Assembly: GCF_026626685.1 (NCBI RefSeq)
Contig: NZ_JAPNJX010000021.1
Span: forward strand, 105,329-169,328
DNA from: Nannocystis sp. SCPEA4
GTDB taxonomy: Bacteria > Myxococcota_A > Polyangia > Nannocystales > Nannocystaceae
DNA length: 64,000 nt
Direction: 5' to 3'
Both the position numbers and the translations under genes were made by a program. A model generated the notes under the pieces. The model was not told the DNA's origin. It was given only the letters and a program-made list of their open reading frames with translations, and did no database searches. Shown here piece after piece: positions 856-56,566 of this stretch (within the stretch, counting starts at the first letter, position 1; each line of letters begins with the position of its first letter).

Positions 856-889
856 CGCGGACATGTCCTTTCAGACAGGCCGTGCGACG

Positions 890-1708: not shown

Positions 1709-1790
1709 GACCTCAGGACATGCCCATGACGACATGCCTGATACGACATGCTCGATGAGACATTGCCGTTCGGACATGCCCAGGAGAGGC
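1709..1790. repeat. Five-unit tandem array of a 14-bp GACATG-containing repeat in the SDR promoter region
   Basis: GACATGCCCATGAC / GACATGCCTGATAC / GACATGCTCGATGA / GACATTGCCGTTCG / GACATGCCCAGG. GACATG starts at about 1718, 1731, 1745, 1759 and 1773. Confidence 0.8.
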
Positions 1791-1886
1791 GTACCGCGGG
1801 CGGAGCCCCGAGGGCCCGCCAGACTCCGAGATGCGCCGCGCGACATGTCCTTTCAGGCATCTTCGTCCGGCATTCACGTGCGCGCC

Positions 1887-4772
1887 TCAATTCTGCGGCG
1901 CCACGGCGTCGGTGCCCTCCACGTGCGCGGCGCGCCAGGCGACGGCCTCGGCGAGGTCGATCGAGCCGGCGAGGCCCAGGGCCGTGAAGGTGGCGACCGC
2001 CTGGTCGAGGAGGACGCGGGCGCGCGGGCGGTCGCGGTCGGACAGCCACAGCGCGCGGGCCAGGCCGTACTCGGCGCGGCCGCGCAGGAGCGCGTGGACG
2101 TCGGTGCCGGCGCGGATCGCCAGGGCCCGCTCGAACGCCGGGATCGCGGTGGCGAGGTCGCCGGCACGGATGCCCCACTCGCCGAGGCCGAGCAGCGAGC
2201 GCGCGACCTCGGCGTGGCTCTCGCCGAGCACGCGGCGGCGGATCGCCAGCGAGCGGTCGATGACCTCGCGCGCACGGTCGAGCTGGCCGGCGCCGAGGTA
2301 CGACTCGCCGAGGTTGTCGAGCTGGGAGCACAGCTCGATGTGGTCGGGGCCGAGGCGGCGCTCGAGCGAGCGCACCACCGCCTCGAACGCGGCGACGGCG
2401 TCGACCGGGCGGCCGCTGCGGGCCAGCGCGGCGGCGATGTTGCCCTGGAACACGACCACCAGCGGATCGTCCTCGCCGTGGGCGCGGAGGATGATGTCGA
2501 GGCCGCGGCGCCAGGTCGCCAGAGCGGCGTCGAAGTCGGTGAGGACGAAGTAGAGGCTGCCCTCGTAGCGCAGGGCGGCGGCGACCTCGGGGTGGTCGGG
2601 GCCGTAGAGCCGCTCGAGGCGGGTGCGGCTGTCCGGAAGGACAGCTTGCGAGCGGGCGAACTCCTGGCGGGCCCACAGCGCGGTGCCGAACCACTGCCGC
2701 GCGCGCGCGGTGTCGGGGTTGTCGGCGCCGTGGAGGGCGTCGTAGGCGGCGACGCTGCGCTCGATGGCGACCTCGGACTCGGCGTAGCGCCCGAGCGACC
2801 ACAGCAGCTTGCTGCGGGCGAAGTCGAGGAAAGCGGCGGCGATGTCGTCGGGCGCGCGACTCTGGGCGGCGGTGGCGATCTGCAGCCAGACCTCGGCGTG
2901 GTCGAGGCGGCCGAGGCTGTTGAGGGCCTCGACCAGGGCGGCCGCGGCGTCGCGAGCGACCGCGTCCTCGTGGCTCGCGGTGGCGATGGTGAAGGCCGAC
3001 ATCAGGCTGACCTGGGCCTCGCCGTCGCGGTGCACCAGCGCGAGCAGGCGCCCGCGCGCGAGCAGGGCCTCGGCGACCACCGGGCTGTAGGCGGCGGCCT
3101 CGGCGGCGGCGACGGCCGCCTCGGCGGCGAGCAGGCCGGCCTCGTAGCGGCCGGTGTGCTCGAGCGCGGCGACGTTGGCGAGCTGGCGGCGCACGGCGTC
3201 GACGGCGAGCGCGGTGTTGGGATCGTCGGGCGGCGGCAGCTCGGCCTGCAGGACCGGGAGGTCGGCGCAGCGCTCGACCGGCGGCAGCGCGGTGACGGCG
3301 TCGACCGCCCGCTCGACCACGCCGGCGTCGGCGGCGACCAGCAGGTCGGTGACCGCCTTGACCTCATGGACATGTCTTGAAAGACAGGCCATGCGGCGGT
3401 CGAGCAAGCGCTCCGACTGCTCGCCGCGCGCGTGGGCCTCGCAGGCCTCGCGGTGCATGGTCGCGATCGCGTCGGCGCGAGCGTCGAGGCGCGCGGCCAC
3501 CTGCGTCCACGCCTCGTCGGCGAAGTCGACGTCGGCGGCCTCGAAGGCGTCGGCGGCGGCGTCGCGGCGGGCCGGGTCCCACACGCCGATCAGCCGGGCC
3601 TCGCCGCCGCCGCAGCGATCGGGCTCGTGCAGGCTGTAGGCGGCCGCGGCGAGGCCGACCACGACGGCGAGGCCGAGACCGACCACGGCGTGGCGGGCTC
3701 GCACCTGCGGGCCGGCGAGGTCGGCCAGCAGCGCGTCCATGCTCGGGTAGCGCGCGTCGGGGGCGCGCGCGAGGCCGCGCGACAGCGCCCGGTACAGCCG
3801 CGGCGGCACGCGCGGGCCGACCTGACCGCGCTCGGGCAGGTCGGCGACCAGGACCTGGTCGCGCAGCTCGTCGACGGTCTCGCCGGCGAACGGCCGCACG
3901 CCCCACAGCGCCTCCCACAGCGCGACGCAGAAGCTGAACTGATCGGTGCGGGCGTCGACCTGTCCTCCGAGCCATTGCTCCGGGGCCATGTACGCCGGCG
4001 TGCCGGCGACGAAGGCGGTGCGCTCGATGGCCGCGCCGCCGAGCTCGCCGTCGTCGGACCGCTCGGCCTGCTCGGCGAGGGCGGCCAGGCCGAAGTCGAC
4101 CACGCGGACGCGGCCCTCGAGGTCGACGAGGACGTTGCCGGGCTTGAAGTCGCGGTGGGTGAGGCCGACGCGGTGGGCCGCGGCCAGGCCGCGACCGGCC
4201 TCGGCGAACACGGTGAGGATGTCCTGCGGGCTGCGCTCGCGGTCGTCGAGCCAGGCCGACAGCGTGACGCCGCGGACGAACTCCATGGCGATGAACAGCT
4301 CGTCGCCGATCGTGCCGGCCTCGTAGACCTGGACCACGTTGGGGTGCGACAGGCGGGCCAGCGCCTGCGCCTCGCGCAGCAATCGCGCCTGCAGGCGCTC
4401 GTCGTTGCGGTGGTGCGAGCGCACGAGCTTGATCGCCACGCGCCGCTCGAGCACCTCGTCGTAGCCGGACAGCACGACGCCCATGCCGCCCTCCCCGAGC
4501 TCGCTGAGGATCGCGTAGCGGCCGATCCGGCGCGACTGACGGATCGCCAGCGAGTCGTCGAGCGCAGCCGCGGCGCCGCGCACACTGATGCCCGAGGTCT
4601 GCTGGGCCGTGACGCTGTCCTTGCGGTCAGGCGGGGCCAGAGCCGTCTCTTCGATCGCGCTCGGGCGGGCCCGGGCGGTCACGTCGAGCGCCGGGGAGCG
4701 CCCGTCGGTGGTCGCGAGCAGGTCCACACCGGAGGGCCCGGTGCGCATGTCGTCGGGCGAGGGGGCACCCAC
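1887..4772 (-). CDS. Ser/Thr protein kinase with C-terminal TPR repeats
   Basis: 961-aa ORF. Hanks kinase motifs: GEGGMGVV glycine loop, [22 protein letters not shown] long TPR-like region follows a TM segment. GTG start at 4772; an alternative ATG lies at 4748. Confidence 0.85.
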
Positions 4773-8313: not shown

Positions 8314-11300
8314 TTAGTAATTCGCATTACCAAACGATCGTTCGCACGCGGCGGCCCGCGCGTCGGCGGTCTCCTGCGATTCGCCCAGGTGGCGCCGGCG
8401 CTCGGCGGGCTGCAGGCAGGCCTGCGTGGCCGCGACGAGGCGCGCGTGCAGATCGGCGTTCAGGCGCGGCCAGACGACGACGCGGCCGTCGGCGCCGGCC
8501 GATGCCAGGCGGTCGCCGCGCGCGTCGAAGGCGAGCGCGTGCACGCCGGCGCCGTGACCCGTGAGCACCTCGGGGCCGTCGTCGCCCTGCAGCGACCAGA
8601 AGTGGAGCTCGCCGTCGGCCGCACCGGCGGCGATCCACGCGCCCTGCGGATCCCAGGCGACGCTGTCGAGCGGCGCGCCGGCGCGACCGACCTCGCTGCG
8701 CACCCCGGTGGCCGCGGCGATCCGCACCAGCGCCCTGCCCTCGCCCGCGACCGCGAGCGCGTCGCCGGCGGGGCTCCAGGCCAGCGCGCGCAGCGGCTGG
8801 CCCAGCTCGATGAACACGGTCTGCTCCACGCGCACCAGCACGAAGCCGGTCGCGGTCACGGCCGCCAGGCGCTCGTCGACCGGCGACCACGCCAGCGCGG
8901 TGATCGGCCCGCGACCCTGGGCGGCGCGTGTCGGATCGGGCATGTTCTCCGAGACATGTCCTGGAGGCCAGATAAAAAAGCTGCCGTCGCTGCCGCCGGC
9001 GGCCAGGCGGCCCGTGCGAGGGTCCCACGCGAGCGCGGGCACGGACCGGCGATCGACCGTGGCGCGCCGGGTCGCGCCCTCGCCGACGGGCAGCCAGGTG
9101 ATCGCGCCGGAATCGTCGGTGATCGCCAGCTCCTGGCCGTCGGGGCGCCAGGCCAGCGCGAGCGCGGTGCCGGCGTGGTCGCGGCGGCGCACCGGCCCGC
9201 CGTCGACCGGCAGCAGCCACACGCTGCGGGCCCCGGCCGCCGCCAGCCTGGTGCCGTCGGGGCTCCACGCGACCGCGTGCACGGCCGCGCCGACGTCGTG
9301 CTCGCGCAGGGCCGCCGGCGTGAGCCGCCAGACCCGCGCGCTGCCGTCGTCGCTGCCGCTGACCAGGCGGACGCCGGTCGGCGCGAACGCCAGCGCCCGC
9401 ACCGGGCCGGTGTGGCCGCGCAGCACGTACGGCCGCGCCGCGCCGCCGAGCCGCCACACCCGCGCGCTGCCGTCGTCGCTGCCGCTGGCCAGCCAACCTG
9501 TCCCGAAGGCCAGGCTCGTGACGCCGCCGTCGCCGACCACCGCGAACACCCGGCGCGCGCGGCCGTCGACGCGCCAGACGTCGACGCCGCCGTCGTCGCG
9601 GCCGATCGCCAGTTGGCGGCCGGAGCGGTCCCACGCGAGCGCGCTGACGGCCGCGCCGCGGTTGCCGATCGCCAGCGCGCGGCCGTCGGCCACCAGCCAC
9701 ACCTCGCCGCGCGGCCCGGCTGCCGCGACCTGGGCCCCGTCCGGGCTCCAGGCGACGGCGGCGAGCGGGCCGCTGACGCCGCGCAGGGCGACGACCCGCC
9801 CGCCCGCCTCGAGCGAGACCTGCCCGCGCGCGTCGGTCCGCAGCTGCTCGCCGGCGGGACCGCGCCGCGGGTCGAATGCGGGCGCGCGGGCGGACGTGCT
9901 CGCCGGGCCGCCGGTGGTGGCGAACCGGCGCAGCCCGCCGGCGGCGTCGATCGTCTCGATCGCGTGGCTGTCCCAAGGGACAGGCGTGGCGCCGCCCGGG
10001 CCCGGGCTGTCCGAAGGGACAGGTGCACCTTGGCCCTGCGCTGACTTGTCCGAAGGGACAGCCTTGTCAGCGTCGGCGGTCGCGCCGCCGTCCGGACCCT
10101 GCCTGTCCCCGGGGACAGCTCCGCCCGCTGCCTCGACCCAGCGCACCGTCAGCACCGGCCCCTCGTGGCCGCGCAGGATCGCCGCGCTGATCGGCTCGGC
10201 CAGCACCCGCTGCGCCAGCGCCCCGGGGTCGTCGAGCTCGCGCAGCAGCAGCGCCGCGGTCGTCGGGTCGCGCGGCAGCAGCGAGAACGCGGCGTCGCGG
10301 ACTCGCAGCGCCTGCGCGTGGCGTTCGGCGGCGGCGCGCTCGGCCGCGAGCTCGTCGGCGGCGAACGGGACGACCTCGCCCACGCTCGTCGGCGGCGCCT
10401 CGCCCGAAGTGACCGGGCCTGCCTCGGGCTGGGCCAGGCTCACCCCGAGCGCGACCAGCCCGGCCGCGGCCGCGGCCGCTCCGCCGGCGATCAGGACCGT
10501 CCGCGCGCGTCCCGCTCCGGGCTCGCGGGCGAACCGCCGCGGCGGCTGGAGAGCAGCCAGCAGGTCGTCCATCGTCGGCCAGCGGGCGTCGGGCTTTTCG
10601 GACAGGCCGCGGGCGATCGCGCGGCGGATGCGCGGAGGCACGCGACTTTCGCGCGGAATGGGTGCGATCTCGACCTGCCCGAAGCGCGGAACCGAGCCGA
10701 ACGGGCGCAGTCCGAACAGCCCCTCGAACAGCGCCACGCAAAAGCTGAACTGATCGGAGCGCGGCTCGGCGGCGCCGTAACGCTGCTGCTCGGGCGCCAT
10801 GTAGGCGGGCGTGCCGAGGATGCTGCCGGTGCGCGTGAGCGGCTCGAGCTCGTCGTCGAGGCTCTCGCCGGCATCGAGGGCGCACGTGAGGCCGAAGTCG
10901 AGGACGCGGGCGCGGCCGCGGTTGTCGACGAGCACGTTCTCGGGCTTGAAGTCGCGGTGGAGCAGGCCCGCGTGGTGAGCCGCAGCCAGCGCCCGCCCGG
11001 CCTGCAGGTACACCATGAGCACCGCGTGCCACGGCCGCGGGCGCTCGCGCAGCCAGGCCTCGAGGGTCACGCCCTCGATCAATTCCATGGCGATGTAGAC
11101 CTGGTCGCCCCACGCGCCGACCTCGTAGATCCGCGCCACGTGCTCGTGCTCGAGGCGGGCCATCGCTCGGGCCTCGCGCAGCAGACGGGCGCGACCCTGC
11201 TCGTCGCCCTGGAGGTGCGGGTGCACCAACTTGATCGCCACGCGGCGGCCGAGTTGGGCGTCGACGGCCGCATACACGACGCCCATGGCCCCCGCCCCGA

Positions 11301-14895: not shown

Positions 14896-14967
14896 GCAAG
14901 CGCGGAGCCTCGTGTGCTCGCAGGCGCGGAGCCTCGTGCACTCGCAGACGCGGGGCCTGTGGCGATT
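14896..14967. repeat. Tandem 24-nt direct repeat x3 immediately downstream of rsgA
   Basis: GCGCGGAGCCTCGTGTGCTCGCAG / GCGCGGAGCCTCGTGCACTCGCAG / ACGCGGGGCCTGTGGCGATTG. Confidence 0.6.
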
Positions 14968-15260: not shown

Positions 15261-15680
15261 TCAAAATTGGATCTGCAACCCTCCGGGTGCCAGCCGGATC
15301 CGTGCGCTCGGGCGCAGCCGCTCGTGACGCCGCAGCCTGGCGCCGAAGATCCCGGTCGGGATCGCCAGCAGCGCCGCGGTCGGCAGCATCACGATCGCCG
15401 TCCAGGCCTCTCCGAACCCGTCGTTGTCGCAGTCGAGGCAGCCGGTGGCTCGCGGCCAGAACAGCCAGGCGAGCATGCTCGCGCCGGTGACGAAGGTCGC
15501 CGCCATGAACCCTCCCGAGAGTCCCGTCACGATCTGCAAGCTGCGCCGCTTGGCCCGCCAGGCCTGAAGCTCTCCGGCCGGCGTGACGACCCCGGGCGCT
15601 GGCGCCTGTGCCTGCGCGAGTCTCGGTGGCGAGGCGCACGCGAGCGCGAGAGCCCAGGTCACGCTCGCGGCCTTCGGCAT
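15261..15680 (-). CDS. Small membrane/secreted hypothetical protein
   Basis: In-frame Met MPKAASVTWALALACASP gives a signal-like N-terminus and hydrophobic helices downstream. Weak call. Confidence 0.3.
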   Translation of the reverse strand: MPKAASVTWALALACASPPRLAQAQAPAPGVVTPAGELQAWRAKRRSLQIVTGLSGGFMAATFVTGASMLAWLFWPRATGCLDCDNDGFGEAWTAIVMLPTAALLAIPTGIFGARLRRHERLRPSARIRLAPGGLQIQF

Positions 15681-15934
15681 CGATCTCGGAGTCGCCGGTG
15701 CAGCCGCGAAAATTGCGGAGCGCGAAAAAACACCACGCCGGCCCCGGAAGCCGCGGCCCCATGGACTCCAGGTCGGCGGTCGGCGACCGCACCGACCCCT
15801 CGCCGCCCGCTCGGGCCGCGACACCCGCGCCGCTTTACAGCCGTCGGCATCGGCGTTGAACTGGGAGCCATCAGCCAGGCGGCGGCGACCGCGGAAATGC
15901 CGGGCCTGCCCGCCGTGTTGTCCCGAGACCGTCC

Positions 15935-16942
15935 ATGTGCCTGCGTCCCTCGCCCTTGCCTCGCCTCGCCCGCGCTCGCGTGGCCTGGGCGATCGCGCTG
16001 GGCCTCGCGGTCGCGCCCGACGCTGCAGCCGCACCGGCGCCGCGCCCCGTGCCGGCAGCGAACAAAGCCACCGCAGCCGCCGCGGCCGCGGTGCGTCCTT
16101 CGGTCGACCTCGAGCCTGACGGCGGTGGTCGGCTGAAGCACCGCGGCCACGGCTTCACCGCGATCATCTACCCCGACGGTTCGGTCGAGTTCCGCGATCA
16201 CGGCGGCACCGCGGACATCAATTTCTTCGGCCTCGATCTGTGGCGCCAGCGCTTCCGCGAGCCCGAGCCCGAGCGTCATGCGCCGATCTGGATGGGCGTC
16301 ATCCACGATCGCCTGTGGCCGGTGCGCGGCTTCGGCCCGGCGCCGGTCCTCGCCGGTATCGGCGGCCGCTTCGGCGGGCTCGCCGACGGCCGCCGCAAGG
16401 ACCGCCACAAGAGCGCCAAGCAGGCCTTCCTGCTGGCCACCGAGCAGCTGCGGTTCCGCCTCGCCAACGCCTGGTACAAGCAGCGCCTCCACAGCGAGCT
16501 CGCCGACCTCGGCGGCCAGCTGCTCGAGGTGTGGCGCGACACCAAGTTGCCGCTGGCCGAGCGCAAGCGCCGGATCTTCGAGCGCTGGGAGGAGTGCGAG
16601 GACGCCACCACCACCCGTCGCACCGAGATCGACGCCATGCGCCTCGAGGTCGCCCGCACCGCTCGCGCCAAGATCGAGGCCTTCGTCCGCCAGGTCGCCC
16701 CGTACGGCTCGCCGCAGGCCTACACCGAGGCCGAGCTCGACCGCTTCAACGCCCGCCGCGCCGGCAAGACCCGCTTCCGCCCCTACGACGCCCCCATTGC
16801 GATCGAGGACGTGACCGCCGAGTCCGAGCTCGGCACCTCCACCGAGAAGCCGCTCGAGCCGCCGCCGCAGGAGCCCGCGACGCCGTCGATGGCCACGCCG
16901 CTCGGCCCCGCTCCCGGCCCCGTCTTCTCGCCCGCACCATGA
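15935..16942 (+). CDS. Secreted hypothetical protein
   Basis: ATG start, signal peptide (WAIALGLAVAPDAAAAPA), non-repetitive coding-like composition. 335 aa. Confidence 0.5.
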   Translation: MCLRPSPLPRLARARVAWAIALGLAVAPDAAAAPAPRPVPAANKATAAAAAAVRPSVDLEPDGGGRLKHRGHGFTAIIYPDGSVEFRDHGGTADINFFGLDLWRQRFREPEPERHAPIWMGVIHDRLWPVRGFGPAPVLAGIGGRFGGLADGRRKDRHKSAKQAFLLATEQLRFRLANAWYKQRLHSELADLGGQLLEVWRDTKLPLAERKRRIFERWEECEDATTTRRTEIDAMRLEVARTARAKIEAFVRQVAPYGSPQAYTEAELDRFNARRAGKTRFRPYDAPIAIEDVTAESELGTSTEKPLEPPPQEPATPSMATPLGPAPGPVFSPAP

Positions 16943-16950
16943 CCCTTGAG

Positions 16951-17100
16951 ACATGTCTCATCGGCCATGTCACGGAGAGCATGTCGTGGCGGACATTTTC
17001 TCGGAGACATGTCCAGATGCTCATCCCGGATCGGGCATGTCTCGGAGAGCATGTCGGATCAGACATTTCCGTGACGACCTATCCGAATGCGCATTCTTCG
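16951..17100. repeat. Intergenic array of GACATGTC-family short repeats (period about 12-14 bp)
   Basis: GAGACATGTCTCATCGGC / CATGTCACGGAGAG / CATGTCGTGGCG / GACATTTTCTCGGAGACATGTCC ... GGGCATGTCTCGGAGAGCATGTCGGATCAGACATTTCC. Confidence 0.7.
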
Positions 17101-17470
17101 CGCGCACCGCCCGTCGGCCAGCCTCCGGACGCACGCGACCATCTTCTCCCCGCGCACCTACCCCCCTCCGCACATCACCTTTCGCTCGCACGCACGGATC
17201 CCCTCTGTCCTTCCGGACATCACCTCCCCTCGCTCCCGCCATGTCCCTCCAGACATGTCCTTCGCGCCACGCGCAGCGCCCGCCGCGGCCTGTTACGGCC
17301 GAGCCCGCCCGCCGCAGTCCGCGCGGTCGGCACGGACGCCGGCGCGGACTTGCGTATGCGCGCGCGACGGCCCGCGCGACCGCGCGTGAGGCAGCTGCGT
17401 GCTATCCCGAGCGCGCGAGGGAATGGGCAGCCGGCCCAAGCCGTTGTCGCGATTTCCTCGTCCCGTCGTC

Positions 17471-19196: not shown

Positions 19197-19326
19197 GCGC
19201 GCACCATAGCGCTTTCGGAGCCGCGAGCCGCTCTCGGGCGTTCGCCCACGCGAGGTTCGTCGCCCCCGCCGATTCCGCGTTGCAAGCCCTCGGGCCGGCC
19301 TCTACCGTGGCTTCCGAGGAGGCGAC

Positions 19327-22523: not shown

Positions 22524-22579
22524 TTTCGCTTCGGTGTTGACGCGGGCCACGTCCGGCGAAAGCTGGGCGCGGCCCGCCT

Positions 22580-22822
22580 CGCGAATTGCCGACTGCGCCT
22601 CGCGTGGGGTCCGGGGAAGGGTCGGCCGCGAGTTCAGCGTGCCGATGCCCCCTCCTGCGTCGGGGTCATCTTGCCCTCGTATTCGCGGCCGACCCTTCCC
22701 CGGACCCCTGGCACGGCTGCAGCCGTGAGAGGCCGACACGCCGTCCTCGACTCCGATGGAGGATGTCCTTTGGAGCAGCTTGCCAGCGCCTGGTCGACGG
22801 CCAGGGCTGGCCGCCGACCAGA
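22580..22822. repeat. Copy A of a roughly 235-bp dispersed element carrying an internal 21-bp inverted repeat
   Basis: About 85-90% identical to the reverse complement of 28912..29148. Internal stem GGGGTCCGGGGAAGGGTCGGC ... GCCGACCCTTCCCCGGACCCC separated by about 60 nt. Confidence 0.75.
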
Positions 22823-23056
22823 CGCTTTCTCAGGTCATTACGGCGTGTCATCTCCCACGGCGTGCGCTTGCCGTGCGCCGCACAGCGCCTTCCCAAGACG
22901 TGGTGAGAGACAGGCGTCGATCTTGCTGACGAGGGCCGGCGCATGCGGTGACATGACTTAGAGACATGTCTTTTTAAACAGTCCATGACCATTCACGGGT
23001 TCGCGCTGGCGCGCAGGCGTGTGCTCGCGCATGCTCGCGTCCGGAGACCCGGACCC

Positions 23057-23479
23057 ATGCCACACAGTTATCACGGCAGCTGTCACTGCGGCACGATCCG
23101 CTTCGAGGCCGACATCGATCTGGCCGCCGGCATTCGCAAGTGCAACTGCAGCTTCTGCTGGAAGCTCGGCTATCGCAAGGCGCTCGTCCCGTACGACGCC
23201 GTGCGCACGACCGCAGGCGCCGAGGCGATGAAGGACTACCAGCCGACCCCCCTGCACTGGCCCCCCGGCGACATCAACCACTACTTCTGCGGCTCGTGCG
23301 GCGCGCACGTGTTCTCGCGCGGCTACCTCGAGAAGGAGATGGGCGGCCACTTCTGGGCCGTCAACGTCGCCTGCCTCGACGACGTCACCGAAGAGGAGCT
23401 CGCGGCGGCCCCGGTCATCTACGAGGACGGCAAGCGCGACCGCCAGGACCAGCCGCCCGCCATCACCGCCTACTTGTGA
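23057..23479 (+). CDS. GFA-family protein (glutathione-dependent formaldehyde-activating enzyme/CENP-V-like)
   Basis: MPHSYHGSCHCGTIRFE ... CNCSFC ... FCGSCGAH Cys pattern. 140 aa. Confidence 0.75.
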   Translation: MPHSYHGSCHCGTIRFEADIDLAAGIRKCNCSFCWKLGYRKALVPYDAVRTTAGAEAMKDYQPTPLHWPPGDINHYFCGSCGAHVFSRGYLEKEMGGHFWAVNVACLDDVTEEELAAAPVIYEDGKRDRQDQPPAITAYL

Positions 23480-23577: not shown

Positions 23578-25311
23578 TCAACCCGACCGCGCCCACGCCA
23601 CGAACGCCTCGAGCGCCGCCAGCGGAGCCTCGTCCGCGATCACGCGGGCCAGCGCCGCCAGCAGCTCCGGCTCCGCGTGGCCATCCAGGCGGGCCCGGGC
23701 CACGTTCGCGGCCAGCTCCCAGCCGGGAGAGCGCACCCCCCCGGCCAGCATCTCGCGCAGCTGCGCCAGCGCATCGGGCACGACCTCGGGCGCGTGCGCG
23801 TGCGCGTAGAAGCACAGCTCGCAGCGCAGCGGCGACCCGGCCTCCGACAGCTCGAGCGCCCGCGCCAGCAGCTCGCGCCCCTCCGCGCCGCGTCCCTCCG
23901 CGAACAGCAACCGGGCGAAGTTGCCGAGCAGGTTGGCGTCCTCCGGATCGGCCGCCAGCGCGCGGCGGTACAGCGCCTCGGCGCCGGCGACGTCGGCGAA
24001 CGCCGCCGCGCGGAAGTTGGCGTAGTTGCCGAGATGGTGCGCGTCGTCCGGCGCGGCCGCGATCGTCGCCTGGTAGCAGGCGTCGGCGCGCGCCCGATCG
24101 CCGCGGATCAGCGCCAGGAAGTTGGCGAAGTTGCCGAGGTGATCGGCGTCGTCCGGTGCGGCCGCCAGCGCCTGCTCGTAGTACGCCTCGGCGAGGTCGT
24201 GCTCGCCGCACACGTCGCTCAGGAACGCCGCGAAGTTGCCGAGCATGTCTGCATGGTCCGGCGCGTCGGCCAGGAACTTCTCATAATAACCGCGAGCCAG
24301 CGGGTTGCCGGCCGAATGTAGCGCCGTGGCGAAGCTCGCCAGCCGCGGCGAGTCGACCGGCAGCGCCTCCGCGAGCAACGCGAACAACGGGTCGCTCGCG
24401 GCGGCCGGCGCCATGTGTTCGCGCAACCGCGGGAACAACCCCCCCAGCGACGCCCCTGTCGGCTCGACCACGATCGCCACCCGCAGCAGCGCCAGCGCGC
24501 GCCCCCACGCCTGCGCCTCGATCGCCGCCTCGACGCCGCGGAGGAGCGCCCGCGCCTCGAACCCCGCGTCGACCAGCAGCTCGCGCGCCAGCGCCACGTG
24601 GGCCGCGTGCACCGGCCCGCGCTCGCTCGCCTGTTCGTGAAGCGCCAGCCGCGGGTGCTGCGGGATCGGCCCCGACAGCGCGAGTACCTCGTCCGCGAAC
24701 GCCACGCGCGCCGCCTCCTCGCGCACCGCCGTCAGCTCGTCCTCGCCGAGCGGCAGCGGGCCGTACACCACCCGCGCCGGCAACTCCGCCACACGACAGC
24801 GGCGCAGCAGCTCGGCCGTGCCCGCCACCTGCTGTTGATTGAGCGCCGTCAACACCACCACGCGATCGGCGAGCGCCCGCACCACCCGCTCCGTCGCCCG
24901 CGACAGCCCCGCCGGGCCGTCGACCAGCACCACGTCGGCGATCTCGGCGGCGTCGAGGCGGCGCCGCAGTTCGCCCAGCACCGCCGCGCGCTCGCCCTGC
25001 GGCCACGCGTCCAGACGATCCCAGTACGCCGCATCGAGCCGGCCCGCCCGCAGCACCCGCAGCGTCCCCGCGATCGGCACGCAGCACCCTGCCATCGCCG
25101 CGGCTTCCGGCACCCCCGCCGTCATCAGCTCCACGAGCCCGTCGCCGTCGCCGCCGGCCAGCCGCGACAGCCCCGGCGACTCGAGATCGGCGTCGACGAG
25201 CAACACCCGCAGCCCACGCGCCGCCAGCACGCGCCCGACGCCCAGCACCGCCAGCGTCCTGCCCACGCCGCCGTGAGCCGACCAGAACGTGATGAACGGC
25301 GCCGCCTGCAT
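23578..25311 (-). CDS. ParA/MinD-like P-loop ATPase domain (deviant Walker A lacking both lysines) fused to TPR repeats
   Basis: N-terminus FITFWSAHGGVGRT...VLLVDADL resembles KGGVGKT...D-D of ParA/MinD with K replaced by H and R. C-terminal half is TPR-like (AEAYYEQALAAAPDDADHLGNFANFL repeats). Confidence 0.6.
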   Translation of the reverse strand: MQAAPFITFWSAHGGVGRTLAVLGVGRVLAARGLRVLLVDADLESPGLSRLAGGDGDGLVELMTAGVPEAAAMAGCCVPIAGTLRVLRAGRLDAAYWDRLDAWPQGERAAVLGELRRRLDAAEIADVVLVDGPAGLSRATERVVRALADRVVVLTALNQQQVAGTAELLRRCRVAELPARVVYGPLPLGEDELTAVREEAARVAFADEVLALSGPIPQHPRLALHEQASERGPVHAAHVALARELLVDAGFEARALLRGVEAAIEAQAWGRALALLRVAIVVEPTGASLGGLFPRLREHMAPAAASDPLFALLAEALPVDSPRLASFATALHSAGNPLARGYYEKFLADAPDHADMLGNFAAFLSDVCGEHDLAEAYYEQALAAAPDDADHLGNFANFLALIRGDRARADACYQATIAAAPDDAHHLGNYANFRAAAFADVAGAEALYRRALAADPEDANLLGNFARLLFAEGRGAEGRELLARALELSEAGSPLRCELCFYAHAHAPEVVPDALAQLREMLAGGVRSPGWELAANVARARLDGHAEPELLAALARVIADEAPLAALEAFVAWARSG

Positions 25312-25440
25312 GCCTGCGACCTCTTCTACCCGCGTGCGCCCCGCGCCGCACGCCGCCCCTGTCCCCATACGGCGTGCGGTTTCACCCGTCGCGCCCCGCA
25401 GGCCCGCCTGCCCGCGACGAGTCCCACCGTCTCCGAGTGC

Positions 25441-25625
25441 ATGTCCATTCGGACATGAATCTATTCACATGTCCATTTAGACATGTCTTGTCAATTTCGA
25501 CGAGTCCATTCCTACGGACATTGTCTATGACTCCATGAACATATGTCCATTCAGGCACATTTCTGCGCCCCTCGACGGGCCGGGCCGCGCTGCGAAAGCC
25601 TGTCCGTAACGACATGTCCTACGAA
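25441..25625. repeat. AT-rich island made of tandem GACATGTCC-family repeats, upstream of the ParA-TPR gene
   Basis: CATGTCCATTCGGACATGAATCTATTCACATGTCCATTTAGACATGTCTTG...GACGAGTCCATTCCTACGGACATTGTCTATGAC...ATATGTCCATTCAGG...CGACATGTCCTACG. Local GC is far below the window average. Confidence 0.7.
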
Positions 25626-28063
25626 TCACCCGTCGGTGCACGCCCTCGCCGATCCTCGCGCGCCCACCTCGCCAGCGCCGCCAGCAGCCCCAGCGCTGCC
25701 AGCGGCCACAAGGGCGCCAGCGGATCGCGACGCGTACGCCGTTCGGCCCACGTCGCGGCCCGCTCCGGCGCCCACGCGAAGCGCAGCGATCCGGGCGGCG
25801 CCGGCGGCAGCCCGTGGCGTGCGCGCACCTCGGGGGCCAGCTGGGCGAACGGCTCCTCCGCGCAGTTCACCTGCGCCAGAACCCGCGTCTCGACGTGCGC
25901 CGCGAAGTGCTCCTGGCGATCGCTGCCGGGCGGAGGCAGCGGCGCGCGCAGCCCCTCGAGCCGCGCCTCGCGGGCCGGCTCGCCCGCGTGCTCGAGCGCC
26001 CAGCGGCGGCACAGGTAGCGCACGTGCCACAGCGACATGCGCTCGCGCTGCCCGAGCAGGTTGTCGCCGATCTTGCGCCAGCGATCGTGCCACGGATGCG
26101 GCAGCGGCAGATCGTCCGCGCGCTGCGGCCCCTCGTCGTAGCGGTGGCGGACCCCGGCCGCGTCGACCACCGTCGTCCGCACCAGCATCTGATCGCGCGG
26201 TGGATTGGGCGCGAACATCGACCACACCTGGCTGGTGTAGCTGAGCTCGATCCACGGCCCGACCAGCGCTCGCACCGGCCCACGCCACGGCAGGCTCGAC
26301 CACGCCGGCAGCTGCCACACCAGCAGCGCGACCACGTGGTACGCCACGAGCCCCCCGGCCGCCAGGCGCCCCGCCGGCCCGTGCGCCCACGGCTCGACCA
26401 GCGCCGTCGTCTCGCTGCGACGGCGCCGCGCGGCTCGCCAGCCGACGATCGTCAGACCTGTCCCTGCGGCCAGCCAGGCCGCGTGCCACGCCCGCGGCCC
26501 GGCGCCCGCGGCCAGCGCCACCAGTCCGCCCGCCAGCACCACCCCGCCCGCGGCCGCGATCGCCCACCCCGGCAGCGCCGCCGCGTCGCGGTGCAGGTGC
26601 GGCAGCGACGGGTCCTCCGCCGCGATGGCTGTCTCTCGGCCCAGGTGCTCGGGGACAGGTACGCGCACACGCGCCAGCCCGCGCAGCGCTCGCTGCAACA
26701 TCGCAATCGCCCACGGACCCGCCCCGCACACCAGATAGGCCGCCAGCGTCGCCGGCGCGAACGCCCCCACGGCCAGCAGCGCGTGGTTGGCGAGGTGGAA
26801 CAGCGCCCCGAACCCCAGCCACCAACGCGGCGCCAGAGGTCCTGCGGCCAGGCGCCGCCCCACCGCCGCCGCCCGGGGCCCCGCGATCGCCACCGCCGCG
26901 GCGATCGCCGCCAGCACCGCCAGCGTCGCCGCGCGCTCGAAGCCGCCGGGATCACCTGACTTTTCCACCAGGTCCTGAGGGACAGCCGCGGCCAGCCCCG
27001 CCGCCACCGCGATCCCGGCCCAGCACAGCCGCGCCCCCGCGCTCGCGGCCCCCTGCAGCGCCGGCGCTCCGCTGCGCGCCACGGCCCGCAGCGCCAGCCC
27101 GACCAGCACCAGCGGGAACAGCCGCTCCCACCACTCCACGCCCCAGCTGGCCAGGCGCAGCGGCCACGGCCCGACCGCAGCGATCACCGCGGACATGTCC
27201 CAACGGACATATGTGTCGCGCGACAGCACCAGCAGCAGCGCGTCGCCCGAGCGCCACGTCGGGCCCGACTTCGCCCAGCCGTTGACCGCGTAGCACAGCG
27301 CCAACTGGCCCGCGATCAGCGCCTGCGGCCACGCGGGGATCCGGCGGTAGATCGCCGCCAGCCCCCGCGGCGCCGCCGGCGACGGTGCCAGGCCCGCCCC
27401 GGCGCCTGGTCCCGAGGACATGCTCAAAAAGCCACGTCGTCGCAGGGCCCGGCAGCGCCGCCAGTTGTCGACGCTGAACGCCGCCCCGCAGCGCGACCAC
27501 ATCAGCAGGAACAGGAACGCGCAGAACACCTGCTCCCCGCCCCAGTGGGCGTCGCCGCGGCGCAGCAGCCCGGCGTACAGCAGCCAGCAGAGGATCGTGC
27601 TGACGCGGGTGCGCCAGCCCAGGGTCAGGCCGAGCGCCGCGACCACCAGCCCCGCGAAATGCAGCCGCACCGCCGTCGGGCTGTCCCCGAAGTACAGCGG
27701 CGACCAGCGCCCGCTGATCACGAACTCGAGCAGCGCCGCCAGGTCGCGCGGGCCCGCGGGCTCGCGCACGCCGTCGCCGAAGCCGATCGTCGCCCCGCGC
27801 CCCATGAGCTCCGGCACCACGGCGCGCGGCAGCAGGCCCTCGTCGGAGAATAGATAGTCGAGCAGCGGCGCGATCTCGACCGTTGTCGCCAGCAGACAAC
27901 AACCGAACGCGATCCGGAACAGCGCCAGCGGTCTCGGGTCGACCGCACGCAGCAGCACCCGCCGCAGCGCCTCACGGTGCAGCGCCACCAGCCCGACAAG
28001 GCTCGCCGACAACAGGACGAGCGCCAGCGCGAGCGCGAAAGACACCGCGCGAGTGTATCCCAC
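25619..28063 (-). CDS. HTTM-domain (vitamin K-dependent gamma-carboxylase-like) polytopic membrane protein
   Basis: 814 aa with many TM helices. N-terminal LALFRIAFGCCLL...IAPLLDYLFSDEG resembles the HTTM domain start. GTG start. Confidence 0.55.
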   Translation of the reverse strand: MGYTRAVSFALALALVLLSASLVGLVALHREALRRVLLRAVDPRPLALFRIAFGCCLLATTVEIAPLLDYLFSDEGLLPRAVVPELMGRGATIGFGDGVREPAGPRDLAALLEFVISGRWSPLYFGDSPTAVRLHFAGLVVAALGLTLGWRTRVSTILCWLLYAGLLRRGDAHWGGEQVFCAFLFLLMWSRCGAAFSVDNWRRCRALRRRGFLSMSSGPGAGAGLAPSPAAPRGLAAIYRRIPAWPQALIAGQLALCYAVNGWAKSGPTWRSGDALLLVLSRDTYVRWDMSAVIAAVGPWPLRLASWGVEWWERLFPLVLVGLALRAVARSGAPALQGAASAGARLCWAGIAVAAGLAAAVPQDLVEKSGDPGGFERAATLAVLAAIAAAVAIAGPRAAAVGRRLAAGPLAPRWWLGFGALFHLANHALLAVGAFAPATLAAYLVCGAGPWAIAMLQRALRGLARVRVPVPEHLGRETAIAAEDPSLPHLHRDAAALPGWAIAAAGGVVLAGGLVALAAGAGPRAWHAAWLAAGTGLTIVGWRAARRRRSETTALVEPWAHGPAGRLAAGGLVAYHVVALLVWQLPAWSSLPWRGPVRALVGPWIELSYTSQVWSMFAPNPPRDQMLVRTTVVDAAGVRHRYDEGPQRADDLPLPHPWHDRWRKIGDNLLGQRERMSLWHVRYLCRRWALEHAGEPAREARLEGLRAPLPPPGSDRQEHFAAHVETRVLAQVNCAEEPFAQLAPEVRARHGLPPAPPGSLRFAWAPERAATWAERRTRRDPLAPLWPLAALGLLAALARWAREDRRGRAPTGDS

Positions 28064-40744: not shown

Positions 40745-40820
40745 CGCCGGGCTCTACGCGCCGGTCGGGCCGCCTGTTCCCGCCCGGCCGTATTCTCAGA
40801 TGTCCATCCGGACATGTCCT

Positions 40821-42362
40821 TCAGGACCCATCATCCACGATCTTCAGCGGACCGAGGCCGAGCGGCTCGACCTGGGCGCGGATCGTCGCCGGATCGCCGA
40901 CCAGCACGATCTGCAGCGCGGCCGGCTCGAACCACCTCGTCAGCGCGCGCTCGATGTCGTCGTCGCGCACCGCCCCGAGCCGGCGCAGCTCGGCCGCCAG
41001 AGCGTCGTCGGGCCGGCCCGACACGTGCAGCTGCGCCACCGCGGCGGCGACGTCGGCCACGCGCTGGTGGCTCAGCATGCGCTCGATCTGAAACGCGCGG
41101 CCGAGCAGCCGCAGCACATCGCCGGTCAGGAAGCGGCCCTGCACCGTCTTCAGCTGCGAGATCATCGTCCGCAGCGACGCGCCCGTGGCCGCCGCGTCGA
41201 CCTGGGTCTCGATCGCCAGCAGGCCGCCGCCTCGCGCCGGCGTGTGCGTCACCGACACTCCGTACGTATCGCCGCGATCGCGGCGCAGCACCTCGCGCAG
41301 CGCCGAGCCGACCACCGCCGCGGCCAGCTCGAGCGCGAGGTCGTCGGCGCCCTCGACCGCGCGGCCGACGGCGATGGCCGTCTGCGCCAGCCCGGGCCGC
41401 GGCACCACCAGCACCTCGCGCCGGGCCTGCGCCGGCGCGGCCGGAGACATCGATTCCGCCGCGGCGACGCCCCACCCGCCGAGGCCGGCGACGGCCCGCT
41501 CGAGCTCGGCCCGCGGCAGATCGCCGACGATCACCAGCGTCGGTTGGCCCTCGCGCAGCAATTGGGCATGCAACATTCGGACATGTTCGATCGACCAGCT
41601 CGCCGTCGGGCGCGCCTCGCCGAGCGCGTCGAGGTTCGGCGCGACGCGGCGCACCAGCGCGTGCAGCCCACGCCGCGCCGGATCGCCGTCGCGGCGCTGG
41701 ATCGCCGCCAGTCGCTCGTCTCGCAGCACCTCGACGTCGGCCGGCGTGAATTCCGGCCGGCGCACCGCCGCCGCGATCGTCGCCAGCGCGGGCGCCCACG
41801 CGGCCGCGTCGACCTCGGCCAGCAGCAGCGCCCCGTCGCCGAGCCACGTGGCAGTGAGCGCCCCGCCGTACTCGCCGAGCGCGTCCTCGACCGCGCGATC
41901 GGGTCCGCGGGCCACCAGCTCGAGGGTGAAGCTCGCCAGCGAAAGACCTACCGCACCAGATGTCCGCAAGGCCAGCCCGATCGCCACCGTCGGGCCCGCG
42001 CGGCGCACGTGCAGCAGCCCCGCCCCGATCCGCTCGACCCGCGGCGCGACCACCGGCGGCGCCTCCGTGGGCAGCTCCGGCGGCGTGTAGCGCCACGACT
42101 GATTGCTGGCGCACGCGACGATAAAAGCCATCGCTGCGAGCCACGCGAGGACACCTGCGATCTTGGCCCTCGCCGCCGTCAGTACGACGCGACGCGCCCG
42201 CTGCCGCGGCCCTGCGTCGCTGTCGGCGCTCTCGCCGGAGCCCCACGACGCCGCTCGGACCGGCGCGGGGCTCGCCGGCTGAAGTTCAGCGCCGACTGTC
42301 CCGAAGGACACACCAAGGTCGACGGGCGCATCGTCGATCATGATCGGCCGCCTCCCGCTCAT
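40821..42362 (-). CDS. M16-family peptidase, non-catalytic (HxxEH-less) subunit
   Basis: 513 aa with insulinase-like fold signatures and no HxxEH. Start ATG overlaps the upstream stop (ATGA). Confidence 0.7.
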   Translation of the reverse strand: MSGRRPIMIDDAPVDLGVSFGTVGAELQPASPAPVRAASWGSGESADSDAGPRQRARRVVLTAARAKIAGVLAWLAAMAFIVACASNQSWRYTPPELPTEAPPVVAPRVERIGAGLLHVRRAGPTVAIGLALRTSGAVGLSLASFTLELVARGPDRAVEDALGEYGGALTATWLGDGALLLAEVDAAAWAPALATIAAAVRRPEFTPADVEVLRDERLAAIQRRDGDPARRGLHALVRRVAPNLDALGEARPTASWSIEHVRMLHAQLLREGQPTLVIVGDLPRAELERAVAGLGGWGVAAAESMSPAAPAQARREVLVVPRPGLAQTAIAVGRAVEGADDLALELAAAVVGSALREVLRRDRGDTYGVSVTHTPARGGGLLAIETQVDAAATGASLRTMISQLKTVQGRFLTGDVLRLLGRAFQIERMLSHQRVADVAAAVAQLHVSGRPDDALAAELRRLGAVRDDDIERALTRWFEPAALQIVLVGDPATIRAQVEPLGLGPLKIVDDGS

Positions 42363-45120: not shown

Positions 45121-45175
45121 CAATATGCCCATAAGGACATGTCGATAACGCCATGTCCTCATGGACTCTCGTGGC
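45121..45175. repeat. Intergenic 14-bp-period GACATGTC-family array
   Basis: CAATATGCCCATAAG / GACATGTCGATAAC / GCCATGTCCTCATG / GACTCTCG. Confidence 0.65.
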
Positions 45176-56028: not shown

Positions 56029-56199
56029 CGTACCCCCTCCTCCAGGGATGCGCGGCGTCGTCCGCGGTGCAACCTCCCCCGTGCTGCCCGTCACGTCGGT
56101 CGGTCGCTGGCGACAAACCCTCCAGCGCCGAAGCGCGCCCGCACGCGGGGCGGCGCGACGCCCGGCTTTCACCCTGCCCCTTGGAACATTCCCTCGAGC

Positions 56200-56566
56200 A
56201 CATGCCCATGAAGACATGCCTATTACAACATGTCCATTGAGACATTCTACTTGACCTCGGCCCCGGCCACCTGCGCCCCCGCCTCCCCCTGTCTCCCGCG
56301 GCGCGGCGGCCGAACGCCACGCCACGACCTGTCCCTTGCGACATTCCACCTCGCCCAGCTCCGCCCCCTGCCAGGCCCGCGCCCCACCGACATCTCGCCA
56401 CGCCACGACGACATGTCCCTTTCGACATGTTTCCTCGCGCATGACTCACCGGCCCGATGCCGGCCCGCGCCTACCCCCAACAGGTCGCCGCGCCCTTCAA
56501 ACGCCCCGACGACCTGTCCTTTTCAACATGCCCCATCGAGCATGACTCACCGGCCCGACGCCGGCC
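56200..56566. repeat. GACATG 14-bp-period array plus a 56-nt direct repeat x2 upstream of glycine-rich paralog 2
   Basis: ACATGCCCATGAA / GACATGCCTATTAC / AACATGTCCATTGA / GACATTCTACTTGA. Also GAC(A/C)TGTCC(C)TTT(C/T)(G/A)ACATG...GCATGACTCACCGGCCCGA(T/C)GCCGGCC at about 56411 and 56511. Confidence 0.7.

What the first reader, a model, noticed from the sequence alone, without database searches (positions are those of the whole stretch)
25430..25625. 190-bp AT-rich island of about 8 motif copies in the promoter region of the ParA-TPR gene
This region is strikingly AT-rich for this genome and consists almost entirely of CATGTCCATT / GGACATG / AGACATGTC units in both orientations. It sits between the stop of the HTTM gene and the start of the ParA-like ATPase-TPR gene. 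It is the densest array in the window, so it is a good place to test function as a regulatory platform or a nucleoid-protein site, or to test hotspot behaviour.
Basis: seen in the sequence. Interest (0 to 1): 0.55.

Follow-up and report, generated by a model that had tools for sequence, protein, structure and literature searches.

The report
Genome-wide palindromic repeat cluster, Nannocystis
The AT-rich island is real, but it is one large cluster of a short palindromic repeat (GGACATGTCC every 14 bases) that is scattered across this Nannocystis genome just after gene ends, so it resembles the "REP" repeats of other bacteria rather than a control region for the neighbouring ParA-like gene.

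Summary
Window 25430-25625 is the lowest-GC 196-nt stretch of the window (0.505 against 0.731 +/- 0.044). It carries 9-10 copies of a (R)GACATGTC(Y) palindrome. It lies between the HTTM gene stop (25619) and the ParA/CbiA-TPR gene start (25368), both on the minus strand.

The island is not gene-specific. The two-unit pattern GACATGTC-N6-GACATGTC (up to 3 mismatches) occurs 37 times in the window against 0.17 expected, with spacing of 14, 28 or 42 nt. Across about 0.7 Mb of Nannocystis-like DNA, clusters lie mostly just after stop codons. Counts are 28 convergent, 16 tandem and 3 divergent intergenic clusters; a method free of gene calling gives 65 convergent against 2 divergent. About a third of classifiable clusters lie inside genes.

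The family is lineage-restricted. It is dense in Nannocystis, sparse in relatives with 78% ThrRS identity, and absent from the Sorangium, Myxococcus and Cognatilysobacter loci.

Two adjacent units form a 10-bp-stem, 4-nt-loop hairpin. The signals for RNA-level selection are weak. The island evolves fast (72% identity to N. radixulma against 95-97% in flanking genes).

Best reading: a REP/BIME-like cluster of stem-loop units at the HTTM 3' end. Sites for a dsDNA-binding protein remain a serious rival. I rate it a new variant of a known kind, of moderate interest.

The parts
25619..28063 (-). HTTM-domain gene (814-aa ORF). Its TAG stop (25621-25619) overlaps the first unit of the island by one base.
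   Evidence: Pfam PF05090, E 1.2e-10; GC3 0.91; sequence
23578..25368 (-). ParA/CbiA-like P-loop ATPase fused to TPR repeats (596 aa), the gene downstream of the island. No ParB-like partner: the next gene is a convergent GFA-family gene at 22985-23479(+).
   Evidence: Pfam CbiA, AAA_31, ParA, TPR_17/19; 94% identical to N. radixulma and 68% to N. bainbridge orthologues
25369..25618 (.). Intergenic region of 250 bp. The ParA-proximal 60 nt are GC-rich and the rest is the island.
25437..25488 (.). Four units in exact 14-nt phase (25437-46, 25451-60, 25465-74, 25479-88). Units 1+2 and units 3+4 each form a 7-8 bp stem with a 4-nt loop.
   Evidence: RNA fold -10.4/-9.6 and -7.8/-9.6 kcal/mol
25498..25564 (.). 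Four further, more degenerate and irregularly spaced units (25498-507, 25516-25, 25539-48, 25555-64). This is the segment that differs most from N. radixulma (18-nt indel).
25596..25619 (.). Stop-proximal unit pair (AGCCTGTCCG / CGACATGTCC) abutting the HTTM stop codon. Conserved in N. radixulma.
   Evidence: weak hairpin of -6.5 kcal/mol
25520..25549 (-). Only sigma-70-like consensus match in the island (TGGACA, 18 nt, GACAAT). Both hexamers lie inside motif units. Not conserved in N. radixulma. A weak candidate promoter for ParA-TPR.
16936..17083 (.). Sister array of 10 units in strict 14-nt phase, starting 7 nt after the stop of 15935-16942(+). N. radixulma has one extra unit.
   Evidence: (RNA fold z -4.45)
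856..889 (.). Family member filling a 34-bp convergent intergenic region (GGACATGTCCTTTCAGACAGG).
1717..1863 (.). Family array (14-nt period; found by Tandem Repeats Finder) between 890-1846(-) and the stop of 1887-4772(-).
35016..35057 (.). Family member forming an 18-pair hairpin between the stop at 35009 and the next gene. The CATG cores are conserved in three Nannocystis species while the spacers vary.
   Evidence: -34 kcal/mol
40797..40832 (.). Family array ending 2 nt from the stop of 40821-42455(-).
45122..45157 (.). Family array about 60 nt downstream of the ThrRS gene stop (45218).
56199..56532 (.). Several family arrays downstream of the stop of 56570-60079(-), within a 101-bp tandem duplication.
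27192..27213 (.). Family pair inside the HTTM coding sequence. N. bainbridge has the same length there but no motif, so the pair arose or was lost by substitutions, not by insertion.
3369..3390 (.). Family pair inside the kinase-TPR coding sequence.
8939..8960 (.). Family pair inside the kinase-WD40 coding sequence.

Best explanation
The island is a large, fast-evolving cluster of a Nannocystis-wide family of short palindromic units. It is comparable to a BIME cluster of REP elements.

Unit structure: the unit is (R)GACATGTC(Y) followed by about 4 variable bases, giving a 14-nt period. Every unit is self-complementary, so any two neighbouring units form a stem-loop in a single strand (10-bp stem and 4-nt loop for the consensus).

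Shown: the family sits where transcripts end, a few to about 30 nt after stop codons and between convergent genes. It avoids divergent promoter regions.

Inferred: the island is transcribed from the HTTM gene. Its stem-loops act at the RNA level as 3'-end or intercistronic structures that stop exonucleases and/or read-through and may interfere with ribosomes at the stop codon. That would separate HTTM expression from ParA-TPR expression.

Not inferred: that the island is an operator array for ParA-TPR.

Unknown: how the units spread and are kept. Candidates are a transposase, a binding protein, or slippage plus selection.
For: - Family and periodicity: two-unit pattern 37 times against 0.17 expected. 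The position profile shows a 14-nt period. Unit spacing is almost only 14, 28 or 42 nt.
- Placement by gene calling: clusters in 0.7 Mb of high-GC loci are 28 convergent, 16 tandem and 3 divergent. The background is 59, 163 and 37 intergenic regions (5.9, 21.2 and 6.7 kb). The binomial p for convergent against divergent is 5e-7.
- Placement relative to stops: in tandem intergenic regions most clusters lie under 30 nt from the upstream stop (10 of 13 by my reading of the table).
- Placement without gene calling: codon-phase contexts give 74 same-strand, 65 convergent and 2 divergent.
- Window genes: 14 of 37 have a unit within 70 nt after the stop, against 4 within 75 nt before the start. The two divergent intergenic regions have none.
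- Independent database gene calls in L130 and L124 show the same placement.
- Structure: the consensus pair folds at -17.4 kcal/mol. The island folds at z -3.2 and -3.4, and the sister array at z -4.45.
- Pairing beyond the consensus: outer positions z about 3; compensatory double changes 46 against 34.6 +/- 5.1.
- Sense-strand G.U mismatches exceed A.C, 38 against 21, p = 0.036.
- Classical hairpin-plus-T-tract terminators are near chance level in the window.
- Orthologous intergenic regions of N. bainbridge keep arrays although the sequence cannot be aligned.
- These properties match published surveys of REPs, which report location between unidirectional and convergent ORFs and downstream of coding regions, some copies inside genes, overlap with stop codons, and G-T pairs in stems (PMC3733652).
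Against: - No T-tract follows the hairpins, so they are not classical intrinsic terminators.
- The island's own hairpins are modest (-8 to -10 kcal/mol). The stop-proximal one is weak (-6.5 kcal/mol).
- The RNA-level signals are statistically weak (p about 0.02-0.04).
- Self-palindromic arms, strict 14-nt spacing, and conserved cores with free spacer sequence are not needed for a hairpin. They suit recognition of double-stranded DNA by a dimer.
- In the window, spacers are essentially all different (2 identical pairs against 1.1 expected). That argues against recent copy-and-paste of a whole element.
- 22 of the 59 clusters that could be classified are truly inside coding sequences (81 more were unclear and 15 at contig edges). 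Some are conserved between orthologues, which a terminator role does not explain.
- No REP-associated transposase was found in the 0.97 Mb held.
- No expression data exist.
Confidence: 0.45

Rival explanations
1. The units are binding sites on double-stranded DNA for an abundant sequence-specific homodimer. This could be a nucleoid-associated protein, a transcription roadblock, or a topoisomerase- or SMC-related factor. Arrays such as the island would be loaded cooperatively every 14 or 28 bp. On this reading the 3'-end bias reflects either a role at converging transcription or simple exclusion from promoters.
For: - Each unit is itself an 8-10 bp palindrome.
- ATGTC-N6-GACAT has the one-turn half-site geometry typical of helix-turn-helix dimers (sequence; general knowledge).
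- Spacing is strictly 14, 28 or 42 nt with no 15-20 nt classes.
- Cores are conserved while spacers vary freely in sequence but not in length.
- In-CDS pairs are conserved across orthologues.
- Arrays persist at the same intergenic regions across species despite sequence turnover.
Against: - There are excess compensatory changes and a G.U over A.C bias on the sense strand, although both are weak.
- Neighbouring sites 14 bp apart would share bases, so they could not all be occupied at once.
- No candidate protein recurred next to sites in 120 metagenome loci.
- The one myxobacterial nucleoid protein with a published motif, CdbA, binds a GC-rich direct repeat separated by 4 bp, not this palindrome (PMC7156744).
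Confidence: 0.27
2. The motif is a 'driven' genome signature with little local function. It would resemble the DNA uptake sequences of Neisseria and Haemophilus or the highly iterated palindrome HIP1 of cyanobacteria. It would accumulate by substitution wherever it is tolerated: convergent intergenic regions first, then 3' ends, then coding sequence, and promoters last. The island would simply be a permissive spot.
For: - The motif is lineage-restricted, with density falling as ThrRS identity falls.
- Roughly a third of classified clusters lie in coding sequence, in all three frames.
- The HTTM in-CDS pair differs from N. bainbridge by substitutions only, with no indel.
- Spacers are unrelated to each other.
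- The motif is almost absent from viral contigs.
- The comparison with uptake sequences and HIP1 rests on my own knowledge.
Against: - Strictly phased arrays of up to 10 units are not a feature of uptake sequences or HIP1.
- Arrays are kept at the same intergenic regions in two species.
- Competence or a matching methyltransferase in Nannocystis is unknown.
- The intergenic excess is about 5-fold, larger than expected for HIP1-type motifs.
Confidence: 0.13
3. The island would be a gene-specific promoter or operator platform controlling the ParA-TPR gene, or a centromere-like site for that ParA-like ATPase.
For: - The island lies 70-190 nt upstream of the ParA-TPR start.
- It contains the only sigma-70-like match in 20-40 kb.
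- N. bainbridge also has units in this intergenic region.
Against: - The same units occur at about 20 unrelated loci in the window, and family-wide they avoid divergent promoter regions.
- The putative -10 segment is replaced in N. radixulma.
- The island is 72% identical where the genes are 95-97% identical.
- There is no ParB-like gene. The ATPase is a CbiA/MinD-type P-loop fused to TPR repeats.
- The motif is unlike the parS consensus (own knowledge).
Confidence: 0.06

Closest known systems
REP / BIME elements (repetitive extragenic palindromes; REPIN-RAYT systems of Enterobacteria, Pseudomonas and others)
   Same: - Short palindromic repeats in high copy. A two-unit hairpin is 24 nt, within the 20-40 bp REP range.
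- Clustered in composite arrays.
- Located between unidirectional and convergent genes and downstream of coding regions, and rare between divergent genes.
- Sometimes overlap stop codons or lie inside genes.
- G-T pairs occur in stems.
- Lineage-specific, with unit number differing between strains.
(REP properties from PMC3733652)
   Different: - No GTAG or CGTC tag next to the palindrome (profiles).
- The arm itself is a perfect palindrome, so direct and inverted copies are equivalent and arrays run in strict 14-nt phase.
- Only the 8-10 bp core is conserved and spacers are unrelated.
- A sizeable fraction lies in coding sequence.
- No RAYT transposase was identified (inconclusive).
DNA uptake sequences (Neisseria DUS, Pasteurellaceae USS)
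   Same: - A short, lineage-specific word at roughly one per kb.
- Present in coding sequence in all frames.
- Intergenic copies often paired into stem-loops just downstream of genes.
- Arise by point substitution.
(own knowledge for DUS/USS; for this motif)
   Different: - The unit here is itself palindromic.
- Phased arrays of up to 10 units exist.
- No evidence of competence or of an uptake receptor in Nannocystis.
HIP1, the highly iterated palindrome GCGATCGC of cyanobacteria
   Same: - An 8-bp palindrome enriched tens of times over chance. Here GACATGTC occurs 18 times against 0.37 expected.
- Lineage-specific, also found in coding sequence, and spread by substitution (own knowledge for HIP1).
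   Different: - Strong intergenic and 3'-end bias.
- A fixed 14-nt pairing rule and tandem arrays.
Intrinsic (Rho-independent) terminators
   Same: A stem-loop with a 4-nt loop placed a few to 30 nt after stop codons, acting in both directions between convergent genes.
   Different: - No T-tract.
- The stems are AT-richer than the genome.
- The stem sequence is conserved genome-wide.
- Copies exist inside genes.
Operator or iteron arrays of ribbon-helix-helix or helix-turn-helix repressors (MetJ metboxes, omega heptads, plasmid centromeres)
   Same: Tandem short palindromic or direct units at fixed spacing that could load a protein cooperatively (own knowledge).
   Different: Those arrays lie in promoters or centromeres of one or a few operons. 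This motif is genome-wide, avoids divergent promoters and sits at gene ends.

Membership tests
REP / BIME (REPIN-RAYT) | Short (20-40 bp) imperfect palindrome present in many copies per genome | tested here: met
   The two-unit hairpin is 24 nt. There are 37 two-unit matches per 64 kb against 0.17 expected. Density in N. radixulma, N. bainbridge and a 90%-ThrRS relative is 0.74-0.83 per kb.
REP / BIME (REPIN-RAYT) | Extragenic, preferentially downstream of genes; between tandem and convergent genes, not divergent ones | tested here: met
   Clusters are 28 convergent, 16 tandem and 3 divergent. The gene-call-free method gives 65 convergent against 2 divergent. However, 22 of 59 classified clusters are inside coding sequence.
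REP / BIME (REPIN-RAYT) | Conserved GTAG (or CGTC) tetranucleotide at one end of the palindrome | tested here: not met
   The flank profile shows only a weak G/R before GACATGTC and no GTAG or CGTC. The GTAG next to the HTTM-stop unit is an isolated case.
REP / BIME (REPIN-RAYT) | A cognate RAYT (IS200/IS605-type Y1 transposase) in the genome, usually flanked by the repeats | tested here: inconclusive
The whole genome could not be searched.
REP / BIME (REPIN-RAYT) | Copies related by descent (shared full-length sequence including the loop) | tested here: not met
   In the window and in N. bainbridge the spacers are all different: 2 identical pairs against 1.1 expected. Only the core is shared. 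An excess of identical spacers in metagenome relatives may come from redundant contigs.
Intrinsic terminator | GC-rich hairpin followed by a run of T on the transcribed strand | tested here: not met
   No terminator-like site in 25200-25800. There is no T enrichment after unit pairs. Window-wide terminator matches are near chance.
Partition centromere (parS or iterons of a ParA system) | Repeats specific to the partition locus, with a ParB or centromere-binding gene next to parA | tested here: not met
   The motif is genome-wide. The neighbour gene is a CbiA-type ATPase fused to TPR repeats with no ParB gene nearby.
Gene-specific operator or promoter array | Sites confined to promoter regions of a regulon and conserved with the regulated gene | tested here: not met
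   Units avoid divergent intergenic regions. The island is 72% identical where the flanking genes are 95-97% identical.
DNA uptake sequence | Preferential uptake of motif-bearing DNA by a competent cell, with a receptor protein | not testable with these tools
   Only the distribution resembles DUS/USS.
Known RNA families (Rfam 15) | Match to a curated covariance model | tested here: not met
   No match at gathering score in the whole window. No match at E <= 1 in 25300-25700.
CdbA-type nucleoid protein sites (M. xanthus) | GC-rich direct repeat separated by 4 bp | tested here: not met
   The published description (PMC7156744) does not fit an AT-richer palindrome at 14-nt period.

The most novel reading that the evidence does not exclude
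Nannocystis and its nearest relatives may carry a previously undescribed genome-wide system. Thousands of strictly phased GGACATGTCC units would be maintained by a dedicated sequence-specific factor that is not a RAYT. Candidates are a protein that marks or terminates converging transcription units on double-stranded DNA, or a DNA-uptake or methylation-linked drive. In that case the 14-nt-phase arrays, including in-gene copies conserved across orthologues, would be a new kind of chromosome punctuation rather than a REP variant.
Probability: 0.2. Interest if true: 0.75.

Novelty: new variant of a known kind. Interest (0 to 1): 0.45.

Why it matters
Myxobacterial genomes are very large and GC-rich, and classical terminators are scarce here. 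How their transcription units are delimited is poorly known.

A lineage-specific palindrome found a few bases after stop codons at about a third of the genes in this window would be a handle on 3'-end formation, mRNA stability or chromosome organisation in this group. It would also serve as a strain-typing marker, because unit numbers differ between close relatives.

Its architecture is a self-palindromic unit at a strict 14-nt period with free spacers and conserved in-gene copies. I did not find this architecture in the REP literature I read. I found no paper describing the motif in four full-text searches.

For the specific finding, the practical message is negative. The island should not be treated as a dedicated regulator of the ParA-TPR gene without experiments.

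Tried and rejected
- Rfam: no match in the whole window at gathering score or in the island at E <= 1.
- Classical terminators and sigma-70 promoters: terminator matches are at chance level. One weak promoter match exists and is not conserved.
- Literature: searches for the motif, for Nannocystis repeats and for myxobacterial REPs found nothing relevant. The CdbA motif differs.
- Recurrent neighbouring gene at sites in 120 metagenome loci, as a candidate autoregulated binding protein: only large paralogous families and orthologous loci recurred.
- RAYT search by tblastn with a remembered E. coli sequence: no hit in 0.97 Mb, inconclusive.
- Viral contigs: only 2 exact matches, so this is not a phage feature.
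- Special RNA tetraloops (UUCG, GNRA) or strand-biased loop composition in the sense orientation: none. UUCG loops occur in some loci.
- Shared spacers as a sign of copy-and-paste: none in Nannocystis.
- Exact look-up of the ParA-TPR protein in public assemblies: not on record.
- A literature check of the claim, from my memory, that E. coli REPs close to stop codons stall ribosomes: the one paper retrieved did not contain the passage in the text held. That parallel therefore rests on my own knowledge only.

Full report
**1. Observation**

The stretch 25430-25625 reads as described. Four units sit in exact 14-nt phase at 25437-25488: GTGCATGTCC, GGACATGAAT, TCACATGTCC and AGACATGTCT. Four more degenerate units lie at 25498-25564, and a pair at 25596-25619 abuts a stop codon.

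The region has 9 ten-mers within 3 mismatches of GGACATGTCC and a GC content of 0.505. That is the lowest of all 196-nt windows (mean 0.731, sd 0.044). Another array, 16945-17140, is equally dense.

The words are far above chance:
- CATGTCC: 36 against 6.2 expected.
- ATGTCCATT with up to 1 mismatch: 15 against 1.9.
- GACATGTC exact: 18 against 0.37; with up to 1 mismatch: 63 against 12.5.

**2. Context**

Codon-position GC content shows both flanking genes are on the minus strand. Pfam identifies 25619-28063(-) as an HTTM-domain protein and 23578-25368(-) as a CbiA/ParA-type P-loop ATPase fused to TPR repeats. The HTTM TAG stop overlaps the last unit by one base.

The window comes from a Nannocystis. 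The ParA-TPR protein is 94% identical to N. radixulma (L001) and 68% identical to N. bainbridge (L002).

**3. The motif is a genome-wide periodic family**

Anchoring on GACATG shows the same word 14 nt upstream and 14 nt downstream. The two-unit pattern GACATGTC-N6-GACATGTC (up to 3 mismatches) occurs 37 times in the window against 0.17 expected.

Distances between units are almost only 14, 28 or 42 nt. There are none at 15-17, 19 or 20 nt and one at 18 nt, in the window and in 600 units from other loci.

Tandem Repeats Finder recovers 14-nt arrays at 1717-1768, 40800-40827 and 56200-56245. At 16936-17083, ten units run in strict phase.

**4. Where the family sits**

About 100 of them have 69-77% GC, although the pattern itself is 50% GC.

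With the window and L002 this gave about 0.7 Mb of sequence. Results:
- Clusters classified by GC3-based gene calls: 28 convergent, 16 tandem and 3 divergent. Available intergenic regions were 59, 163 and 37 (5.9, 21.2 and 6.7 kb). The binomial p for convergent against divergent by length is 5e-7.
- In tandem intergenic regions most clusters are under 30 nt from the upstream stop. I read 10 of 13 from the table.
- In convergent regions the nearer stop is typically about 10 nt away, again read from the table.
- A classification that needs no ORF calling (codon-phase GC on each side) gave 74 same-strand, 65 convergent and 2 divergent contexts.
- In the window, 14 of 37 genes have a unit within 70 nt after the stop, and 4 have one within 75 nt before the start. 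The two divergent regions (19197-19326 and 60080-60439) have none.
- Database gene calls for L124 and L130 show the same picture.

A real minority of clusters is inside coding sequence: 22 of the 59 clusters that could be classified, while 81 more were unclear and 15 lay at contig edges. These occur in all three frames, reading GHVxxDMS, DMSxxTC(P/L) or TCPxGHV. Cores are conserved and spacers changed between orthologues.

**5. Distribution among organisms**

I used a short-form ThrRS in the window to fetch relatives. Two-unit density per kb:

| Source | ThrRS identity | Two-unit hits per kb |
|---|---|---|
| Window, L001, L002, L130 | Nannocystis level (L130 90%) | 0.58-0.83 |
| L124 | 78% | 0.14 |
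| L131 | 76% | 0.05 |
| L125, L132 | 72%, 71% | 0 |
| Sorangium cellulosum (L126) | 64% | 0 |
| Myxococcus xanthus (L127) | 61% | 0 |
| Cognatilysobacter (L003, 69% GC control) | not applicable | 0 |

Only two exact matches exist in the viral collection.

**6. Evolution**

Against N. radixulma the island is 72% identical with 29 gap columns, including an 18-nt indel. The flanking coding sequences are 95-97% identical with no gaps. The 16936-17083 array differs by one whole unit.

At 35016-35057 the CATG cores are conserved in three species while the spacers vary. In N. bainbridge the orthologous intergenic regions cannot be aligned, but those with arrays in the window also have arrays there and those without have none.

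The in-gene pair at 27192 corresponds to an equal-length, motif-free sequence in N. bainbridge. It therefore differs by substitutions, not insertion.

Spacers in Nannocystis are AT-rich (0.60) and essentially all different from each other.

**7. Structure**

Each unit is self-complementary, so two neighbouring units make a perfect hairpin. The consensus pair folds at -17.4 kcal/mol. The island pairs fold at -8 to -10, the stop-proximal pair at -6.5, and 35010-35062 at -34 kcal/mol.

The island folds better than shuffled sequence on both strands (z -3.2 and -3.4). The sister array gives z -4.45.

Evidence that pairing itself is selected is present but weak:
- Extra complementarity at non-consensus outer positions, z about 3.
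- Compensatory double deviations 46 against 34.6 +/- 5.1, with 8 of 500 shuffles reaching the observed value.
- G.U 38 against A.C 21 on the sense strand, p = 0.036.

No T-tract follows the pairs. Classical terminators are near chance in the window. There is no Rfam match.

**8. Interpretation**

These properties match those reported for REP families. The REP survey describes 20-40 bp palindromes in high copy, mostly between unidirectional and convergent ORFs and downstream of genes. It also reports some copies inside genes, ends that can supply the stop codon, and G-T pairs suggesting RNA function (PMC3733652).

I therefore read the island as a BIME-like cluster of REP-like units at the 3' end of the HTTM gene. 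Its most likely action is as transcribed stem-loops. This step is inferred: no expression data exist.

Several features do not fit classical REPs:
- There is no GTAG or CGTC tag.
- The arms are self-palindromic.
- The 14-nt phase is strict.
- The spacers are unrelated.
- In-gene copies are conserved.
- No RAYT transposase was found (inconclusive).

The same features favour recognition of double-stranded DNA by a dimeric protein, which I keep as the main rival (0.27). A driven signature like uptake sequences or HIP1 is a third possibility (0.13).

The motif is everywhere and avoids divergent promoters. The single sigma-70-like match (25549-25520, minus strand) lies in the non-conserved middle. 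There is no ParB gene.

**9. Novelty and score**

Four full-text searches found no description of this motif. I rate it a new variant of a known kind (REP-like), of moderate interest (0.45).

I give probability 0.2 that it is a distinct system with its own factor. That reading would deserve about 0.75.

Noticed in passing
window 30695-33244 (-): An 849-aa ORF with Pfam MVP_shoulder (E 2e-30), Vault_3 and Band_7 hits: a bacterial gene resembling the major vault protein.
   Followed up: no
window 45218-46915 (-): A short-form threonyl-tRNA synthetase. All homologues are about 400 aa, so the 565-aa ORF is over-extended at its 5' end.
   Followed up: partly
window 13784-15934, 20788-22984, 54821-56569: Long stretches with only fragmented high-GC3 ORFs in changing frames. 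These may be pseudogenes or frameshifted genes, or genes my simple caller missed.
   Followed up: no
window 3369-3390, 8939-8960, 27192-27213, 63504-63513: Motif pairs or units lying inside coding sequences (kinase-TPR, kinase-WD40 and HTTM genes, and the 62835-63953 gene). The HTTM one is absent from N. bainbridge without any indel.
   Followed up: partly
window 16936-17083: Ten units in strict 14-nt phase starting 7 nt after a stop codon. The whole array can fold into one long hairpin (z -4.45). N. radixulma has one additional unit.
   Followed up: yes
window 56400-56609: A 101-bp tandem duplication (2.1 copies, 75% match) that carries motif units.
   Followed up: no
L031 1621-1756 (= L044 3442-3577): Four tandem hairpins GGGACATGTCC-TTCG-GGACATGCCC, each with a cUUCGg-type loop, starting shortly after an ORF that ends at 1613.
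   Followed up: no
L008, L014, L015, L065-L067, L069, L107, L111 compared with the window and L002: Spacers between units are GC-rich (AT 0.29) in the metagenome relatives from Ga0075163-type samples. They are AT-rich (0.56-0.60) in Nannocystis. Spacer composition is therefore lineage-specific.
   Followed up: partly
L006/L118 and L080/L096/L108: In-gene motif pairs are conserved at the same position in orthologous proteins from different metagenome contigs, with cores kept and the spacer changed. Examples: GHVPADMS against GHVPLDMS, and DMSRETCL against DMSQQTCL.
   Followed up: partly
window 4964-6817 (-) and 19327-20787 (+): Proteins with 'planctomycete-type' PSCyt and PSD domains (DUF1587/1592/1595/1588). 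The 19327 ORF seems to continue in another frame, which suggests a possible frameshift.
   Followed up: no
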